A stretch of 8,828 nucleotides of DNA, from assembly GCA_000004985.1 (NCBI GenBank), contig GG739054.1; one strand, written 5' to 3'. Below, one piece after another: positions 419-6,083 of the stretch (its first letter is position 1; the number at the start of each line of letters is the position of its first letter). The notes under the pieces were generated by a model that had not been told where the DNA came from, searched no databases, and saw only the letters and a program-made list of their open reading frames with translations. This DNA comes from Naegleria gruberi (lineage: Eukaryota). A program made the position numbers and the translations under genes.

Positions 419-553
419 CTTGCTGTTGTTGGTCATCCTCTTCGAAGAGTAATTCATCTTGATCAGCTTCGTTCATATCTTCCAAGGCAAATTCGTACCT
501 TTCCAAATCTCTCTTGAGTTGGGTAGAGTTGAATCCATGAACCATTCCACATC
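414..553 (-). CDS. Exon 2 (3'-terminal) of the CxxC...CxxC zinc-binding (Yippee/Mis18-like) protein gene. It encodes ...G-CGMVHGFNSTQLKRDLERYEFALEDMNEADQDELLFEEDDQQQQE*.
   Basis: On the minus strand this is the only open frame after a 70-bp intron at 554-623 (donor G|GTAAGT, acceptor ttaaaAG|). Splicing joins 'CVG' to 'CGM', which recreates a second C-x2-C motif about 46 residues after the 'CAHC' motif. Stop TAA is at 414-416 and lies within AATAAA (413-418, minus). The C-terminus is an acidic tail. Confidence 0.6.
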
Positions 554-623
554 CTTTTAATCATCATCATAAGATATCATCAAATAATAATATTACATTC
601 CAGTGATGAAGAAGAAAACTTAC

Positions 624-1110: not shown

Positions 1111-1343
1111 TTTGTTTTGTTACGTAATCAAAAGTTACTACTGTGTCCCGTTGCTTAATTTGGAAGCATCTTTTGAGGCAGGACCATTTGAATTTGGAAG
1201 TACATTCGAGGCACAAAGTAGCATTGGTCGGTTAAACTTTGCACATTCATGGATTAATTGTTTCACAAAAATCCAGTATTAAAATATAAGCAATTATTGT
1301 TCTTGAGATGTTCATTTCATTCCAAATGAACGTGAAGCGTCGA

Positions 1344-1354
1344 TGGTTTAGTGG
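1344..1354 (+). promoter_or_regulatory. Pol III A box (TGGTTTAGTGG) of the tRNA-Gly gene. The B box (GGTTCAATTCC) is split by the insertion; only GGTTCAATTgt remains contiguous at 1386-1396.
   Basis: Matches the TRGYNNARNGG A-box consensus at tRNA positions 8-18. B-box positions 61-62 (CC) are displaced about 316 bp downstream. Confidence 0.6.
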
Positions 1355-1387
1355 TAGAATACGGCGTTGCCATCGCCGTGACCCGGG

Positions 1388-1394
1388 TTCAATT
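1388..1394 (+). repeat. Left copy of the 7-bp target-site duplication (TTCAATT).
   Basis: Identical to 1704-1710. Both copies correspond to the tRNA T-loop. Confidence 0.6.
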
Positions 1395-1446
1395 GTATGT
1401 TTGAATGTTCCATATATAGTAAACCGTCTCCCGTTACCCAATTTCA

Positions 1447-1460
1447 TTTTTTTAAAAAAA
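1447..1460 (+). terminator. Internal T7 run (1447-1453) followed by A7 (1454-1460) inside the insertion. It is a potential premature pol III terminator for transcripts started at the disrupted tRNA promoter.
   Basis: 'tttttttaaaaaaa'. A run of four or more T residues on the coding strand terminates pol III. The run lies about 110 nt downstream of tRNA position +1. Confidence 0.35.
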
Positions 1461-1506
1461 TTAAAAAATTTTAAATGCGTCGACCAGTTTATAACACACA
1501 TACAAC

Positions 1507-1540
1507 ATTCCCAAAAAGGAAAAGCGACTCCCGGTATCAA
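1507..1540 (+). repeat. Internal copy ('unit A') of the element-3'-end/tRNA junction motif ATTCCYAAAAAGGAA-N7-TCCCGGT. The second copy ('unit B') is at 1688-1717.
   Basis: 1507-1521 attcccaaaaaggaa vs 1688-1702 attcctaaaaaggaa (14/15 identical). After a 7-nt divergent spacer, 1529-1535 tcccggt vs 1711-1717 tcccggt (7/7). Both are followed by TTAAT-containing AT-rich sequence, and each is near a taaatattaaata-like motif. Confidence 0.5.
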
Positions 1541-1703
1541 ATAATTAATATTAAATACATTTATTGTTGTTGTTCTTGAATGGTACCTTTCCAAATATGG
1601 TGAATCGACTCACGGGTACCCTACTTCAACACATTTACACGTTGTTCATTATTCAATATTGTAAACTATTTAAATATTAAATATAATATTCCTAAAAAGG
1701 AAT

Positions 1704-1710
1704 TTCAATT
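1704..1710 (+). repeat. Right copy of the 7-bp target-site duplication (TTCAATT).
   Basis: Identical to 1388-1394 and directly followed by the tRNA T-stem 3' half, CCCGG. Confidence 0.6.
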
Positions 1711-1736
1711 CCCGGTCGACGCAGTCATAACATTAA

Positions 1737-1741
1737 TTTTT
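1737..1741 (+). terminator. Pol III terminator (T5) of the original tRNA-Gly gene.
   Basis: 'ttttt' lies 14 nt after discriminator A1723. Confidence 0.6.
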
Positions 1742-1842
1742 AATCATCATAACAATTGAGTCACTCATTGTTTCAAATTGTAACCTAGGCATACCATTAT
1801 ACAATATTCTCAATTTTTGAATTTTAATAATTTATATTGAGC

Positions 1843-2724: not shown

Positions 2725-5700
2725 NNNNNNNNNNNNNNNNNNNNNNNNNNNNNNNNNNNNNNNNNNNNNNNNNNNNNNNNNNNNNNNNNNNNNNNNNNNN
2801 NNNNNNNNNNNNNNNNNNNNNNNNNNNNNNNNNNNNNNNNNNNNNNNNNNNNNNNNNNNNNNNNNNNNNNNNNNNNNNNNNNNNNNNNNNNNNNNNNNNN
2901 NNNNNNNNNNNNNNNNNNNNNNNNNNNNNNNNNNNNNNNNNNNNNNNNNNNNNNNNNNNNNNNNNNNNNNNNNNNNNNNNNNNNNNNNNNNNNNNNNNNN
3001 NNNNNNNNNNNNNNNNNNNNNNNNNNNNNNNNNNNNNNNNNNNNNNNNNNNNNNNNNNNNNNNNNNNNNNNNNNNNNNNNNNNNNNNNNNNNNNNNNNNN
3101 NNNNNNNNNNNNNNNNNNNNNNNNNNNNNNNNNNNNNNNNNNNNNNNNNNNNNNNNNNNNNNNNNNNNNNNNNNNNNNNNNNNNNNNNNNNNNNNNNNNN
3201 NNNNNNNNNNNNNNNNNNNNNNNNNNNNNNNNNNNNNNNNNNNNNNNNNNNNNNNNNNNNNNNNNNNNNNNNNNNNNNNNNNNNNNNNNNNNNNNNNNNN
3301 NNNNNNNNNNNNNNNNNNNNNNNNNNNNNNNNNNNNNNNNNNNNNNNNNNNNNNNNNNNNNNNNNNNNNNNNNNNNNNNNNNNNNNNNNNNNNNNNNNNN
3401 NNNNNNNNNNNNNNNNNNNNNNNNNNNNNNNNNNNNNNNNNNNNNNNNNNNNNNNNNNNNNNNNNNNNNNNNNNNNNNNNNNNNNNNNNNNNNNNNNNNN
3501 NNNNNNNNNNNNNNNNNNNNNNNNNNNNNNNNNNNNNNNNNNNNNNNNNNNNNNNNNNNNNNNNNNNNNNNNNNNNNNNNNNNNNNNNNNNNNNNNNNNN
3601 NNNNNNNNNNNNNNNNNNNNNNNNNNNNNNNNNNNNNNNNNNNNNNNNNNNNNNNNNNNNNNNNNNNNNNNNNNNNNNNNNNNNNNNNNNNNNNNNNNNN
3701 NNNNNNNNNNNNNNNNNNNNNNNNNNNNNNNNNNNNNNNNNNNNNNNNNNNNNNNNNNNNNNNNNNNNNNNNNNNNNNNNNNNNNNNNNNNNNNNNNNNN
3801 NNNNNNNNNNNNNNNNNNNNNNNNNNNNNNNNNNNNNNNNNNNNNNNNNNNNNNNNNNNNNNNNNNNNNNNNNNNNNNNNNNNNNNNNNNNNNNNNNNNN
3901 NNNNNNNNNNNNNNNNNNNNNNNNNNNNNNNNNNNNNNNNNNNNNNNNNNNNNNNNNNNNNNNNNNNNNNNNNNNNNNNNNNNNNNNNNNNNNNNNNNNN
4001 NNNNNNNNNNNNNNNNNNNNNNNNNNNNNNNNNNNNNNNNNNNNNNNNNNNNNNNNNNNNNNNNNNNNNNNNNNNNNNNNNNNNNNNNNNNNNNNNNNNN
4101 NNNNNNNNNNNNNNNNNNNNNNNNNNNNNNNNNNNNNNNNNNNNNNNNNNNNNNNNNNNNNNNNNNNNNNNNNNNNNNNNNNNNNNNNNNNNNNNNNNNN
4201 NNNNNNNNNNNNNNNNNNNNNNNNNNNNNNNNNNNNNNNNNNNNNNNNNNNNNNNNNNNNNNNNNNNNNNNNNNNNNNNNNNNNNNNNNNNNNNNNNNNN
4301 NNNNNNNNNNNNNNNNNNNNNNNNNNNNNNNNNNNNNNNNNNNNNNNNNNNNNNNNNNNNNNNNNNNNNNNNNNNNNNNNNNNNNNNNNNNNNNNNNNNN
4401 NNNNNNNNNNNNNNNNNNNNNNNNNNNNNNNNNNNNNNNNNNNNNNNNNNNNNNNNNNNNNNNNNNNNNNNNNNNNNNNNNNNNNNNNNNNNNNNNNNNN
4501 NNNNNNNNNNNNNNNNNNNNNNNNNNNNNNNNNNNNNNNNNNNNNNNNNNNNNNNNNNNNNNNNNNNNNNNNNNNNNNNNNNNNNNNNNNNNNNNNNNNN
4601 NNNNNNNNNNNNNNNNNNNNNNNNNNNNNNNNNNNNNNNNNNNNNNNNNNNNNNNNNNNNNNNNNNNNNNNNNNNNNNNNNNNNNNNNNNNNNNNNNNNN
4701 NNNNNNNNNNNNNNNNNNNNNNNNNNNNNNNNNNNNNNNNNNNNNNNNNNNNNNNNNNNNNNNNNNNNNNNNNNNNNNNNNNNNNNNNNNNNNNNNNNNN
4801 NNNNNNNNNNNNNNNNNNNNNNNNNNNNNNNNNNNNNNNNNNNNNNNNNNNNNNNNNNNNNNNNNNNNNNNNNNNNNNNNNNNNNNNNNNNNNNNNNNNN
4901 NNNNNNNNNNNNNNNNNNNNNNNNNNNNNNNNNNNNNNNNNNNNNNNNNNNNNNNNNNNNNNNNNNNNNNNNNNNNNNNNNNNNNNNNNNNNNNNNNNNN
5001 NNNNNNNNNNNNNNNNNNNNNNNNNNNNNNNNNNNNNNNNNNNNNNNNNNNNNNNNNNNNNNNNNNNNNNNNNNNNNNNNNNNNNNNNNNNNNNNNNNNN
5101 NNNNNNNNNNNNNNNNNNNNNNNNNNNNNNNNNNNNNNNNNNNNNNNNNNNNNNNNNNNNNNNNNNNNNNNNNNNNNNNNNNNNNNNNNNNNNNNNNNNN
5201 NNNNNNNNNNNNNNNNNNNNNNNNNNNNNNNNNNNNNNNNNNNNNNNNNNNNNNNNNNNNNNNNNNNNNNNNNNNNNNNNNNNNNNNNNNNNNNNNNNNN
5301 NNNNNNNNNNNNNNNNNNNNNNNNNNNNNNNNNNNNNNNNNNNNNNNNNNNNNNNNNNNNNNNNNNNNNNNNNNNNNNNNNNNNNNNNNNNNNNNNNNNN
5401 NNNNNNNNNNNNNNNNNNNNNNNNNNNNNNNNNNNNNNNNNNNNNNNNNNNNNNNNNNNNNNNNNNNNNNNNNNNNNNNNNNNNNNNNNNNNNNNNNNNN
5501 NNNNNNNNNNNNNNNNNNNNNNNNNNNNNNNNNNNNNNNNNNNNNNNNNNNNNNNNNNNNNNNNNNNNNNNNNNNNNNNNNNNNNNNNNNNNNNNNNNNN
5601 NNNNNNNNNNNNNNNNNNNNNNNNNNNNNNNNNNNNNNNNNNNNNNNNNNNNNNNNNNNNNNNNNNNNNNNNNNNNNNNNNNNNNNNNNNNNNNNNNNNN

Positions 5701-6083
5701 NNNNNNNNNNNNNNNNNNNNNNNNNNNNNNNNNNNNNNNNNNNNNNNNNNNNNNNNNNNNNNNNNNNNNNNNNNNNNNNNNNNNNNNNNNNNNNNNNNNN
5801 NNNNNNNNNNNNNNNNNNNNNNNNNNNNNNNNNNNNNNNNNNNNNNNNNNNNNNNNNNNNNNNNNNNNNNNNNNNNNNNNNNNNNNNNNNNNNNNNNNNN
5901 NNNNNNNNNNNNNNNNNNNNNNNNNNNNNNNNNNNNNNNNNNNNNNNNNNNNNNNNNNNNNNNNNNNNNNNNNNNNNNNNNNNNNNNNNNNNNNNNNNNN
6001 NNNNNNNNNNNNNNNNNNNNNNNNNNNNNNNNNNNNNNNNNNNNNNNNNNNNNNNNNNNNNNNNNNNNNNNNNNNNNNNNNNN
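2725..6083. other. Assembly gap of 3359 N. It hides the 3' ends of two convergent genes (2116+ on the plus strand, 6794- on the minus strand).
   Basis: An uninterrupted run of 'n'. The non-round length suggests a gap size estimated from pairing or mapping information. The ORFs 2549..6118(+), 2656..6114(-) and most of 2709..6788(-) in the supplied track are artefacts of translating N as X. Confidence 0.99.

What the first reader, a model, noticed from the sequence alone, without database searches (positions are those of the whole stretch)
1395..1745. The insertion carries an internal copy of its own 3' junction, including tRNA T-stem sequence
The motif ATTCCYAAAAAGGAA-N7-TCCCGGT occurs twice. 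One copy is at the real 3' junction (1688-1717), where TCCCGGT is the tRNA T-stem 3' half (tCCCGG) plus the first acceptor base. The other is deep inside the insert (1507-1535). The two are 14/15 and 7/7 identical, with only the 7-nt spacer different (tttcaat vs aagcgac). Both are flanked by taaatattaaata-like AT motifs. In addition, tgcGTCGACc at 1476-1485 is the reverse complement of the tRNA 3' end ggTCGACgca (1714-1723). This is hard to explain by a simple cut-and-paste insertion. Possible explanations are listed here. (a) The element may be a tRNA-targeting family that has captured the T-arm and acceptor sequence of a previously occupied tRNA gene, by transduction or template switching. 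(b) Two related elements may be nested or tandem. (c) The element may be tRNA-derived (SINE-like) with a diverged tRNA-related core. It also has a short imperfect terminal inverted repeat (TTGAAtgTTCC at 1401-1411 and GGAAtTTCAA at 1699-1708). A palindromic T7A7 tract sits at 1447-1460.
Basis: seen in the sequence. Interest (0 to 1): 0.55.

Follow-up and report, generated by a model that had tools for sequence, protein, structure and literature searches.

The report
Repeat-built insertion splitting a tRNA-Gly gene
A Naegleria gruberi glycine tRNA gene is split in its T-loop by a 309-base non-coding insertion with a 7-base target duplication; the insertion is made of diverged tandem repeats whose unit ends resemble the tRNA sequence it landed next to, which suggests a small tRNA-targeting mobile element, unproven from this one copy.

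Summary
The window is a whole 8.8-kb Naegleria gruberi scaffold. A tRNA-Gly(GCC) gene is split after its T-loop by 309 bp (1395-1703), flanked by a 7-bp duplication TTCAATT. An environmental Naegleria-like contig carries the uninterrupted, 100% identical tRNA.

These lie in two diverged direct repeats (1401-1535 and 1576-1717, 68% identical). The last copy is completed by the tRNA's own T-loop and 3' T-stem.

Not above chance: the "terminal inverted repeat", the similarity of the insert interior to the tRNA, and the similarity of the flanks to the insert. The GTCGAC 10-mer is marginal (p~0.03).

Ruled unlikely: MITE, LTR, group I/II intron or ribozyme, tRNA-derived SINE, and a functional tRNA intron (a T7 Pol III stop lies inside, and any bulge-helix-bulge fold is weak).

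Best reading: a recent insertion of a non-autonomous, repeat-built, T-arm-selective mobile element. Dada transposons are the closest analogue and TPRT retroelements the rival. It rests on a single copy, because the N. gruberi genome could not be searched. Interest is moderate.

The parts
1337..1394 (+). 5' part of tRNA-Gly(GCC): acceptor 5' strand, D arm, anticodon arm, variable region, T-stem 5' half and the full T-loop TTCAATT (1388-1394, left copy of the 7-bp duplication)
   Evidence: Joined to 1711-1723 it gives a perfect 71-nt tRNA-Gly(gcc) in ARAGORN. It is 100% identical to L001 204-264. Rfam tRNA gives a sub-threshold truncated hit at 1337-1401.
1395..1703 (+). 309-bp non-coding insertion (29% G+C), absent from the intact tRNA-Gly(GCC) gene in L001
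   Evidence: Filled-site versus empty-site comparison. No Rfam family at E <= 10. No terminal inverted repeat. No further copy in the rest of the window or in L001.
1401..1535 (+). Direct repeat DR1, containing J1 and J2
   Evidence: Colinear alignment with 1576-1717: score 31 against 13.1 +/- 2.3 in shuffles, blastn E = 1e-7, 102/150 identical.
1576..1717 (+). Direct repeat DR2, containing J3 and J4; its last 14 bases are the right copy of the target duplication plus the tRNA 3' T-stem half and the next T
1408..1436 (+). J1 motif TTCCATATATAGTAAACCGTCTCCCGTTA
   Evidence: 20/27 to J3 and 18/27 to J2, against a background maximum of 16. Best non-training hit when left out, E = 0.8.
1508..1536 (+).
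   Evidence: 21/27 to J4 and 20/27 to J3. Leave-one-out E = 4e-4. Exact pattern match.
1589..1618 (+). J3 motif TTCCAAATATGGTGAATCGACTCACGGGTA
   Evidence: 20/27 to J1 and to J2. Leave-one-out E = 4e-3.
1689..1717 (+). J4 motif TTCCTAAAAAGGAAT|TTCAATT|CCCGGTC: the element's 3' end (small hairpin ATTCC/GGAAT), then the right copy of the duplicated T-loop, then the tRNA 3' T-stem half
   Evidence: 21/27 to J2. Best non-training hit when left out, E = 1.1. Positions 1704-1723 are 100% identical to L001 258-277.
1704..1710 (+). Right copy of the 7-bp duplication TTCAATT (T-loop)
   Evidence: The two 100% matches to L001 overlap by exactly these 7 bases.
1711..1723 (+). 3' part of tRNA-Gly(GCC): T-stem 3' half CCCGG, acceptor 3' strand TCGACGC, discriminator A; a T5 terminator follows at 1736-1740
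1447..1460 (.). T7A7 tract; it reads as T7 on either strand, so it is a Pol III termination signal inside the insert
   Evidence: Read directly from the sequence. Not conserved in DR2. That T runs terminate Pol III is established knowledge.
1476..1485 (+). TGCGTCGACC, the exact reverse complement of the tRNA 3' end GGTCGACGCA (1714-1723), or equally a 7/7 copy of the tRNA 5' acceptor strand; marginal significance
   Evidence: Longest insert-to-tRNA match is 10 nt, p = 0.027 in 2000 shuffles. It pairs with the 3' end in the minimum-free-energy fold of the whole precursor.

Best explanation
This is a fairly recent insertion of a small, non-coding, non-autonomous mobile element into the T-loop of one copy of the multicopy tRNA-Gly(GCC) gene. 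A 7-bp staggered cut duplicated the T-loop TTCAATT.

The element is a tandem multimer. A ~90-100-nt unit is present about 3.4 times and is organised as two ~140-nt diverged direct repeats. Each unit boundary carries the motif TTCC.AAA.A.GG.AA - 7 nt - (C)TCCCGG-TA. The second half of that motif looks like 'T-loop + 3' T-stem half'.

The element ends after the first half of the motif, and the tRNA's own T-loop and TCCCGGT supply the second half. The 'internal copy of the 3' junction' is therefore an element-borne repeat that mimics the target. The repeats are either fossils of earlier tandem insertions, each new copy entering next to the previous one and the multimer later moving as a block, or reiterated binding sites for the mobilising protein.

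The in-register completion implies selection for the T-arm. The most likely mechanism is mobilisation in trans by a sequence-specific enzyme. A Dada-like DDE transposase is the closest precedent; a site-specific non-LTR reverse transcriptase/endonuclease is the alternative.

The insertion inactivates this gene copy. It splits the B box, and Pol III would stop at the T7 run 53 nt into the insert.

- Shown: the split tRNA, the 7-bp duplication, the empty-site counterpart, and the repeat architecture extending into the tRNA.
- Inferred: mobility, target specificity, the enzyme class, and recency.
For: - Filled and empty sites with an exact 7-bp duplication.
- Both tRNA halves carry no substitution relative to an intact gene in another genome. 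The two internal repeats are only 68% identical. The repeats therefore pre-date arrival at this site and came in with the inserted DNA (inference).
- Four J motifs and two colinear direct repeats are well above chance.
- J4 is a chimera. Its first half belongs to the J family and its second half is the tRNA's T-loop plus TCCCGGT, 7/7 identical to J2 at the same 7-nt offset. For a random landing site that is about 4^-6 to 4^-7 (reasoning from sequence).
- No terminal inverted repeat and no known RNA family.
- Dada transposons give 6-7-bp duplications, lack terminal inverted repeats, insert inside tRNA and snRNA genes, share a sub-terminal motif with the target at a fixed distance from the duplication, and form tandem insertions separated by one duplication-length spacer (PMC3706591).
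- tRNA-gene-specific non-LTR elements also exist: NeSL-1_TV, LIN15_SM and LIN25_SM (PMC4640811).
Against: - Only one copy was seen. No second copy lies in the window or in L001. The motif scans of the metagenome and viral collections and the protein search with the 115-aa antisense ORF (1250-1594) found none either; the genome-collection scan gave one chance hit. The N. gruberi genome itself could not be searched, so mobility and specificity are inferred.
- All four J motifs are in direct orientation. A cut-and-paste DDE element would be expected to have inverted end sites.
- The left end (GTATGT TTGAATG...) falls at an arbitrary point of the repeat unit. That fits 5' truncation in target-primed reverse transcription better than a defined transposon end.
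- N. gruberi is not among the Dada hosts listed in 2013. Known Dada tRNA sites are nucleotides 8-13 or the anticodon loop, not the T-loop.
- Gene conversion from intact tRNA-Gly copies could keep the halves pristine, which would undercut the 'recent' inference.
Confidence: 0.5

Rival explanations
1. The element is a site-specific retroelement derivative, a short internally deleted or non-autonomous partner of an R2/NeSL-type non-LTR element, inserted by target-primed reverse transcription at a nick in the T-loop. The fixed 3' end (hairpin ...ATTCCTAAAAAGGAAT) is the reverse-transcriptase recognition end. Template jumping, or a multimeric or read-through template carrying downstream target sequence, produced the tandem units and the internal junction copies. 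The left end is a 5' truncation.
For: - No terminal inverted repeat.
- The 3' end is defined at a motif that recurs at the homologous position inside the insert (J2). The 5' end lies at an arbitrary point of the unit.
- All repeats are in direct orientation.
- tRNA-gene-specific non-LTR families are documented.
Against: - No reverse-transcriptase partner was seen.
- No A-rich or simple-repeat tail.
- T7 and T4 runs inside DR1 exclude Pol III transcription of the whole element.
- The internal 7-mers differ from TTCAATT, so read-through from this kind of target does not directly explain them.
- Single copy only.
Confidence: 0.2
2. The structure is a local rearrangement, not a mobile family. A short sequence once entered the T-loop. 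The segment 'insert + T-loop + 3' T-stem half (+ flank)' then duplicated in tandem in situ several times and decayed. Ectopic gene conversion from intact tRNA-Gly(GCC) copies keeps the outer tRNA halves, including the second half of J4, identical to the functional gene.
For: - The repeat unit includes T-stem-like sequence, and homology crosses the insert boundary.
- J4's 7-mer departs from the J1-J3 consensus exactly where it equals the modern T-loop.
- No other copy was found anywhere that could be searched.
Against: - It requires both repeated in-situ duplications and precise conversion tracts ending at the insert boundaries.
- Similarity of the insert to the gene's real 5' and 3' flanks is at low-complexity background level.
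- Insert interior against the tRNA is not significant.
- It still needs an initial 7-bp-duplicating insertion.
Confidence: 0.2
3. The insert is a non-canonical tRNA intron in the T-loop, removed by the tRNA splicing endonuclease through a bulge-helix-bulge fold. The fold would be the T stem, then a UUC bulge, then AAUU:AAUU (the T-loop repeat is self-complementary), then a second UUC bulge. The gene would remain functional, which would explain the intact halves.
For: - Because of the duplicated TTC+AATT next to the T stem, the two junctions can formally be drawn as helix, 3-nt bulge, 4-bp helix, 3-nt bulge. Cleavage at equivalent bulge positions would restore the tRNA exactly (reasoning from sequence).
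- Both tRNA halves are unmutated.
Against: - That fold is not the minimum (-16.7 against -19.5 kcal/mol) and lacks the intron-side helix h'.
- The T7 tract at 1447-1453 would terminate Pol III.
- The B box is split.
- 309 nt is far longer than known tRNA introns (own knowledge).
- Two literature searches for Naegleria tRNA introns (T-loop, bulge-helix-bulge) turned up no report of one.
- The 7-bp direct repeat is explained for free by a target duplication, but under the intron model it needs a 1/64 coincidence for the identical bulges.
Confidence: 0.04
4. The element is a tRNA-derived SINE-like element, or a captured decayed tRNA-Gly pseudogene (about 1477-1535: GCGTCGA ... TCCCGGT), nested in its parent gene.
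For: - GCGTCGA (7/7), GTTTA and ATAC occur in tRNA order after 1477, and TCCCGGT ends the segment.
- The GCGACTCC / TCGACTC part of the J motifs resembles a B-box core (own reading of the sequence).
Against: - Interior alignment to the tRNA has p = 0.11, and control AT-rich segments score as well or better.
- Exact 7-mers shared with the tRNA are expected by chance in 81% of shuffles.
- Rfam's tRNA model finds nothing inside the insert at E <= 10.
- Internal T7 and T4 runs are incompatible with a Pol III-transcribed SINE.
Confidence: 0.05

Closest known systems
Dada DNA transposons (Kojima & Jurka 2013, PMC3706591; 2022, PMC8869645), including internally deleted non-autonomous derivatives such as Dada-U6N1_DR
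   Same: - Inserted inside a multicopy small-RNA gene, and tRNA genes are among the known targets.
- 6-7-bp target duplication.
- No terminal inverted repeats.
- A short element motif recurs in the target at a fixed distance from the duplication.
- Tandem copies are separated by a duplication-length spacer.
   Different: - Known tRNA sites are nucleotides 8-13 (A box) or the anticodon loop, not the T-loop.
- Dada's sub-terminal motifs are inverted, one at each end. Here the motif is reiterated four times in direct orientation, and the 5' end lacks it.
- No transposase was seen, and N. gruberi is not a listed host.
- Dada-U6N1_DR retains 231 bp of the 5' end and 1567 bp of the 3' end of its parent, so it is several times larger than this 309-bp element.
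Site-specific non-LTR retrotransposons of multicopy RNA genes (R2; NeSL-1_TV in tRNA-Pro; LIN15_SM and LIN25_SM in tRNA-Arg/Glu) and their short non-autonomous derivatives
   Same: - Precise position inside an RNA gene.
- Defined 3' end with a small hairpin.
- Apparent 5' truncation.
- Direct-orientation tandem or partial units.
- No terminal inverted repeats.
   Different: - No reverse-transcriptase partner or shared 3' tail could be identified.
- No tail repeat.
- No T-loop target turned up in the papers read here.
Prokaryotic integrative elements that recombine in the T-loop-to-3'-end region of tRNA genes (tyrosine integrases; own knowledge, Williams 2002)
   Same: - The T-arm is the target.
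- The element carries tRNA 3'-like sequence.
- A short identical core flanks the insert.
   Different: - This is a eukaryote.
- The element is 309 bp and non-coding.
- The internal copies cover only the T-stem half and do not rebuild the gene.
- The displaced 3' end expected at the left junction is absent.
Non-canonical bulge-helix-bulge tRNA introns (Archaea, Cyanidioschyzon merolae; for example PMC9602550)
   Same: - Interruption in the T-arm.
- A bulge-helix-bulge-like drawing is possible.
   Different: - Much longer than known examples.
- Contains a Pol III terminator.
- The helix is weak.
- The junctions carry a direct repeat typical of a target duplication.

Membership tests
Dada DNA transposon (non-autonomous derivative) | 6-7-bp target-site duplication | tested here: met
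   7-bp TTCAATT at 1388-1394 and 1704-1710. The empty site in L001 overlaps by exactly 7 bases.
Dada DNA transposon (non-autonomous derivative) | Insertion at a family-specific site inside a multicopy small RNA gene, recurring in many copies | not testable with these tools
   It is inside tRNA-Gly(GCC). Recurrence needs the N. gruberi genome, which the tools do not hold.
Dada DNA transposon (non-autonomous derivative) | [quoted passage not shown] | tested here: inconclusive
   No terminal inverted repeat. A target-like motif does recur at a fixed 7-nt offset (J2 and J4). However, all copies are direct, and the candidate inverted pair is at chance level (p = 0.21).
Dada DNA transposon (non-autonomous derivative) | Shares termini with an autonomous element encoding a Dada DDE transposase in the same genome | not tested
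   No transposase in the window. N. gruberi is absent from Table 1 of PMC3706591.
Site-specific non-LTR retroelement derivative | Constant 3' end, variable 5' truncation, 3' tail shared with an RT-encoding partner | not testable with these tools
   In the single copy, the 3' end lies at a recurring motif and the 5' end lies inside a repeat unit. The partner and other copies are unreachable.
MITE / cut-and-paste element with terminal inverted repeats | Terminal inverted repeats | tested here: not met
   At most 7/12 matches for any of the 8 possible boundary shifts. The sub-terminal pair has p = 0.21.
tRNA-derived SINE | tRNA-related head with A and B boxes, transcribable by Pol III | tested here: not met
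   Interior against the tRNA has p = 0.11 and controls score equally. No Rfam tRNA hit inside the insert at E <= 10. T7 and T4 runs lie inside.
Bulge-helix-bulge tRNA intron | Stable helix, 3-nt bulge, 4-bp helix, 3-nt bulge, helix at the exon-intron junctions, on a continuous precursor | tested here: not met
   The structure can be forced (-16.7 kcal/mol) but is not the minimum (-19.5) and lacks h'. A T7 terminator lies in the insert.
Group I/II intron or self-cleaving ribozyme element (retrozyme-like) | Match to the catalytic RNA covariance model | tested here: not met
   Rfam 15 gives no hit at gathering threshold on the window. At E <= 10 on 1250-1800 it gives only a truncated tRNA and two noise hits.
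LTR retrotransposon / solo LTR | TG...CA termini with a 4-6-bp duplication; a primer-binding site next to the 5' LTR | tested here: not met
   TG/CA boundaries give unequal flanks (TCAAT against ATTCC; read). The tRNA-complementary 10-mer lies inside DR1 and lacks the TGG (CCA complement).

The most novel reading that the evidence does not exclude
The element is a eukaryotic mobile element specific for the tRNA T-loop. It would recognise its target through its own reiterated 'hairpin - 7 nt - TCCCGG' units, so that the element end plus the tRNA T-arm rebuild a unit. That would be a self-templated or homology-guided form of target choice. Because the duplicated TTC+AATT next to the T stem automatically draws a bulge-helix-bulge, such an element could also act as a transposon-born tRNA intron, the tRNA counterpart of spliceosomal 'introners'.
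Probability: 0.07. Interest if true: 0.8.

Novelty: new variant of a known kind. Interest (0 to 1): 0.4.

Why it matters
Elements that insert at one exact position inside multicopy RNA genes are rare. They are studied as 'safe-harbour' parasites and as leads for targeted DNA delivery.

None turned up for Heterolobosea, or for the tRNA T-loop, in the papers I could search. If genomic copies confirm a family, three things would follow.

- It would extend gene-internal tRNA targeting to a deep-branching protist lineage and to a new site, the B box / T-loop.
- Its target-mimicking internal repeats would give a direct handle on how the target is recognised.
- For genome annotation, standard tRNA finders miss this gene entirely. 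tRNA counts in Naegleria may therefore omit interrupted copies.

Tried and rejected
Attempts to find other copies:

- Exact-protein look-ups of two window proteins returned nothing, so the scaffold is not in the contig index.
- Motif scans gave 0 hits in the metagenome collection and 0 in the viral collection. The genome collection gave one hit, in Algoriphagus, which is a chance match inside bacterial DNA.
- The tRNA pattern gave 0 hits in the viral collection.
- phmmer of the 115-aa antisense ORF (1250-1594, covering part of the insert plus the tRNA 5' part and flank) against 1.84 billion representative proteins returned only antisense-tRNA ORFs and a zinc-finger protein.
- blastn of the insert against the rest of the window and against L001 gave only AT-rich low-complexity matches.

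Ideas tested and dropped:

- A fifth motif copy (J0) and homology between the tRNA's 5' flank and 1537-1607. Shuffles gave p = 0.004. However, the J HMM and PWM do not find J0, and the same insert segment scores as high against unrelated AT-rich regions.
- Homology of the 3' flank to the linker: p = 0.23.
- The insert interior as a decayed tRNA-Gly: p = 0.11, with controls scoring equal or better.
- The terminal inverted repeat.
- Solo LTR, Helitron (A|T site, TC...CTRR ends) and spliceosomal-introner readings (GTATGT...AAAAAG). All three were rejected on the end sequences; the introner reading would also leave 11 extra bases.
- Tandem Repeats Finder does not detect the array, because the units are too diverged.

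Literature searches on Naegleria transposons and tRNA introns found nothing relevant.
Full report
**Source and setting.** The minus-strand gene at 400-1110 (one short intron) translates to a protein 100% identical to a 'predicted protein [Naegleria gruberi]' whose longest contig is 8828 bp. The window is therefore a complete small scaffold of N. gruberi (33.6% G+C). Bases 2725-6083 are a run of N. ARAGORN and Rfam at gathering thresholds find no RNA gene in the window as it stands.

**The split tRNA and its empty site.**
- Bases 1337-1394 are the 5' 58 nt of a tRNA, up to and including the T-loop TTCAATT. Bases 1711-1723 are the 3' T-stem half, the acceptor 3' strand and the discriminator base.
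- Joined, they give a perfect 71-nt tRNA-Gly(GCC).
- A scan of the metagenome collection for the anticodon-to-T-loop stretch returned one contig, L001 (Ga0247722_10058881). It carries an uninterrupted tRNA-Gly(GCC) beside a tRNA-Ile(AAT).
- L001 204-264 equals window 1334-1394, and L001 258-277 equals window 1704-1723, both at 100%. The two matches overlap by exactly the seven bases TTCAATT.
- This is a classical filled-site versus empty-site picture: a 309-bp insert (1395-1703, 29% G+C) with a 7-bp target duplication.
- A T5 Pol III terminator follows the tRNA at 1736-1740.

**Check of the reported observation.** ATTCCYAAAAAGGAA-N7-TCCCGG occurs exactly twice in the window, and none was expected in 200 shuffles.

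- The pair is half of a four-member family of a ~29-nt motif, all on the + strand: J1 1408-1436, J2 1508-1536, J3 1589-1618, J4 1689-1717. The spacing is 100, 81 and 100 nt.
- With any J as a 27-mer query, other J copies are the best ungapped matches among 10,834 positions on both strands (17-21/27, against a background maximum of 16; J1-J4 alone does not exceed it).
- In leave-one-out nhmmer the omitted copy is always the best non-training hit (E = 4e-4 for J2, 4e-3 for J3, 0.8 for J1, 1.1 for J4).
- J1 pairs best with J3, and J2 with J4. This is because the insert is two colinear diverged direct repeats, DR1 about 1401-1535 and DR2 about 1576-1717. The local score is 31 against 13.1 +/- 2.3 in dinucleotide shuffles, 0/1000 as good. 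blastn gives E = 1e-7, and 102/150 aligned bases are identical.
- Tandem Repeats Finder misses the array because the units are too diverged.
- DR2 does not stop at the insert boundary. Its last 14 bases are the right copy of the duplication plus TCCCGGT of the tRNA, and TCCCGGT is 7/7 identical to J2 at the same offset.
- The three internal 7-mers at the 'T-loop position' (ACCGTCT, AGCGACT, ATCGACT) resemble one another, not TTCAATT.

**Side claims that fail.**
- The 'imperfect terminal inverted repeat' has p = 0.21, and there is no terminal inverted repeat at any of the eight possible boundary placements.
- The 10-mer TGCGTCGACC, complementary to the tRNA 3' end, is only marginal. An exact insert-to-tRNA match of 10 nt or more arises in 2.7% of shuffles, and 7-mers arise in 81%.
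- I also chased apparent homology between the insert and the gene's own 5' and 3' flanks, and between the insert interior and the tRNA. The 5'-flank match looked good against shuffles (p = 0.004). It is not found by the J HMM or PWM and is matched by unrelated AT-rich regions.
- The 3'-flank match has p = 0.23. The interior-to-tRNA alignment has p = 0.11, with controls as good or better. I treat all three as unsupported.

**What it is not.**
- No Rfam family is hit at E <= 10 in 1250-1800 apart from the truncated tRNA. No group I or II intron, hammerhead or HDV-like ribozyme, and no tRNA-like fold, lies inside the insert.
- TG...CA (LTR), Helitron and introner readings fail on the end sequences.
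- A tRNA intron is formally drawable. TTC+AATT is duplicated next to the T stem and AATT is self-complementary, so the junctions can be written as T stem, UUC bulge, AAUU:AAUU helix, UUC bulge. That fold is 2.8 kcal/mol worse than the minimum and has no intron-side helix.
- The insert contains T7 (1447-1453), followed by A7, so Pol III would stop in either orientation. The B box is split.
- This gene copy is most likely dead. It would give at best a ~110-nt chimeric Pol III transcript (inference from established Pol III termination rules).

**Inference on history.** The two tRNA halves show no change over 71 nt relative to an intact gene from another genome, while DR1 and DR2 are only 68% identical. 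Unless gene conversion keeps the halves fresh, the repeats, including the internal 'junction copies', already existed in the DNA that was inserted. They are not relics of events at this locus. The element then landed where the flanking T-loop plus TCCCGGT completes its terminal half-motif in register. For a random site the chance of that is about 4^-6 to 4^-7. This argues for selection of the T-arm as target.

**Mechanism.** I favour a non-autonomous, repeat-built, T-arm-selective mobile element mobilised in trans, inserted through a 7-bp staggered cut.
- The closest precedent is Dada. It gives 6-7-bp duplications, has no terminal inverted repeats, targets tRNA and snRNA genes, shares a sub-terminal motif with the target at a fixed distance from the duplication, and forms tandem copies separated by one duplication-length spacer. 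The J2 junction (...GGAAA | AGCGACT | CCCGGTA...) has exactly that 'copy - 7 nt - copy' form.
- Against strict membership: the motifs here are direct, not inverted. The left end lies at an arbitrary point of the unit. Known Dada tRNA sites are nucleotides 8-13 or the anticodon loop. N. gruberi is not a listed host.
- The direct repeats, the fixed 3' end and the ragged 5' end fit target-primed reverse transcription by a site-specific non-LTR element equally well. tRNA-specific families of that kind are known.
- A purely local history, in-situ tandem duplication plus gene conversion, cannot be excluded with one copy.

**Limits.** Every route to further copies failed or was unavailable. The deciding analysis is a search of the N. 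gruberi genome with the insert and the J motif, and it remains to be done.

**Verdict.** The feature is most likely a new variant of the known class of RNA-gene-targeting mobile elements. Interest is moderate, pending evidence on copy number.

Noticed in passing
window 2725-6083: A 3359-base run of N occupies 38% of the scaffold. ORFs on both sides run into it: a Ras/Rab-like and F-box-like gene from about 1914, and a C2-domain gene on the minus strand ending about 6960. It could be an assembly gap or masking. Whatever lies there, possibly repeat or transposon sequence, is invisible.
   Followed up: no
L001 47-119 and 207-277: The environmental contig Ga0247722_10058881 carries tRNA-Ile(AAT) and a tRNA-Gly(GCC) 100% identical to the N. 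gruberi gene, 87 bp apart. A BTB/T1-like ORF follows. It is evidently from a Naegleria-like organism in a JGI metagenome, and its flanks are unrelated to those in the window.
   Followed up: partly
proteins P0002, P0003, P0005, P0006, P0007: Public protein collections contain 'proteins' that are antisense translations of tRNA genes (...PGIEPG..WQA.ILPLNHR...). The motif is repeated up to 13 times in one 911-aa entry. These are tandem tRNA or tRNA-derived repeat arrays mis-called as genes.
   Followed up: no
window 1390-1395 and 1699-1712: Both insertion junctions create palindromes. The left is CAATTG (T-loop CAATT plus the first insert base). The right is GGAAT-TTCA-ATTCC (element end plus T-loop plus CC), and the same ATTCC also begins the terminal hairpin at 1688. 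This may matter for cleavage or hairpin formation, or it may be coincidence.
   Followed up: partly
window 1388-1394 / 1704-1710 with T stem 1383-1387 / 1711-1715: Any insertion that duplicates this T-loop (TTC + self-complementary AATT) automatically yields a bulge-helix-bulge-like arrangement beside the T stem. It is weak here, but it is a general route by which a transposon could become a tRNA intron.
   Followed up: partly
window 1547-1557 and 1673-1683: AATATTAAATA occurs twice, once 12 nt after the internal TCCCGGT and once 5 nt before the terminal hairpin. The two copies are offset differently from the J motifs, so they are not part of the DR1/DR2 register. This looks like AT-rich low complexity.
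   Followed up: partly
window 505-580 (minus strand): The gene for P0001 has a ~76-nt GTAAGT...AAAAG intron. The insert starts with GTATGT and has AAAAAG near its end. The resemblance to splice sites appears coincidental, because splicing there would leave 11 extra bases.
   Followed up: yes
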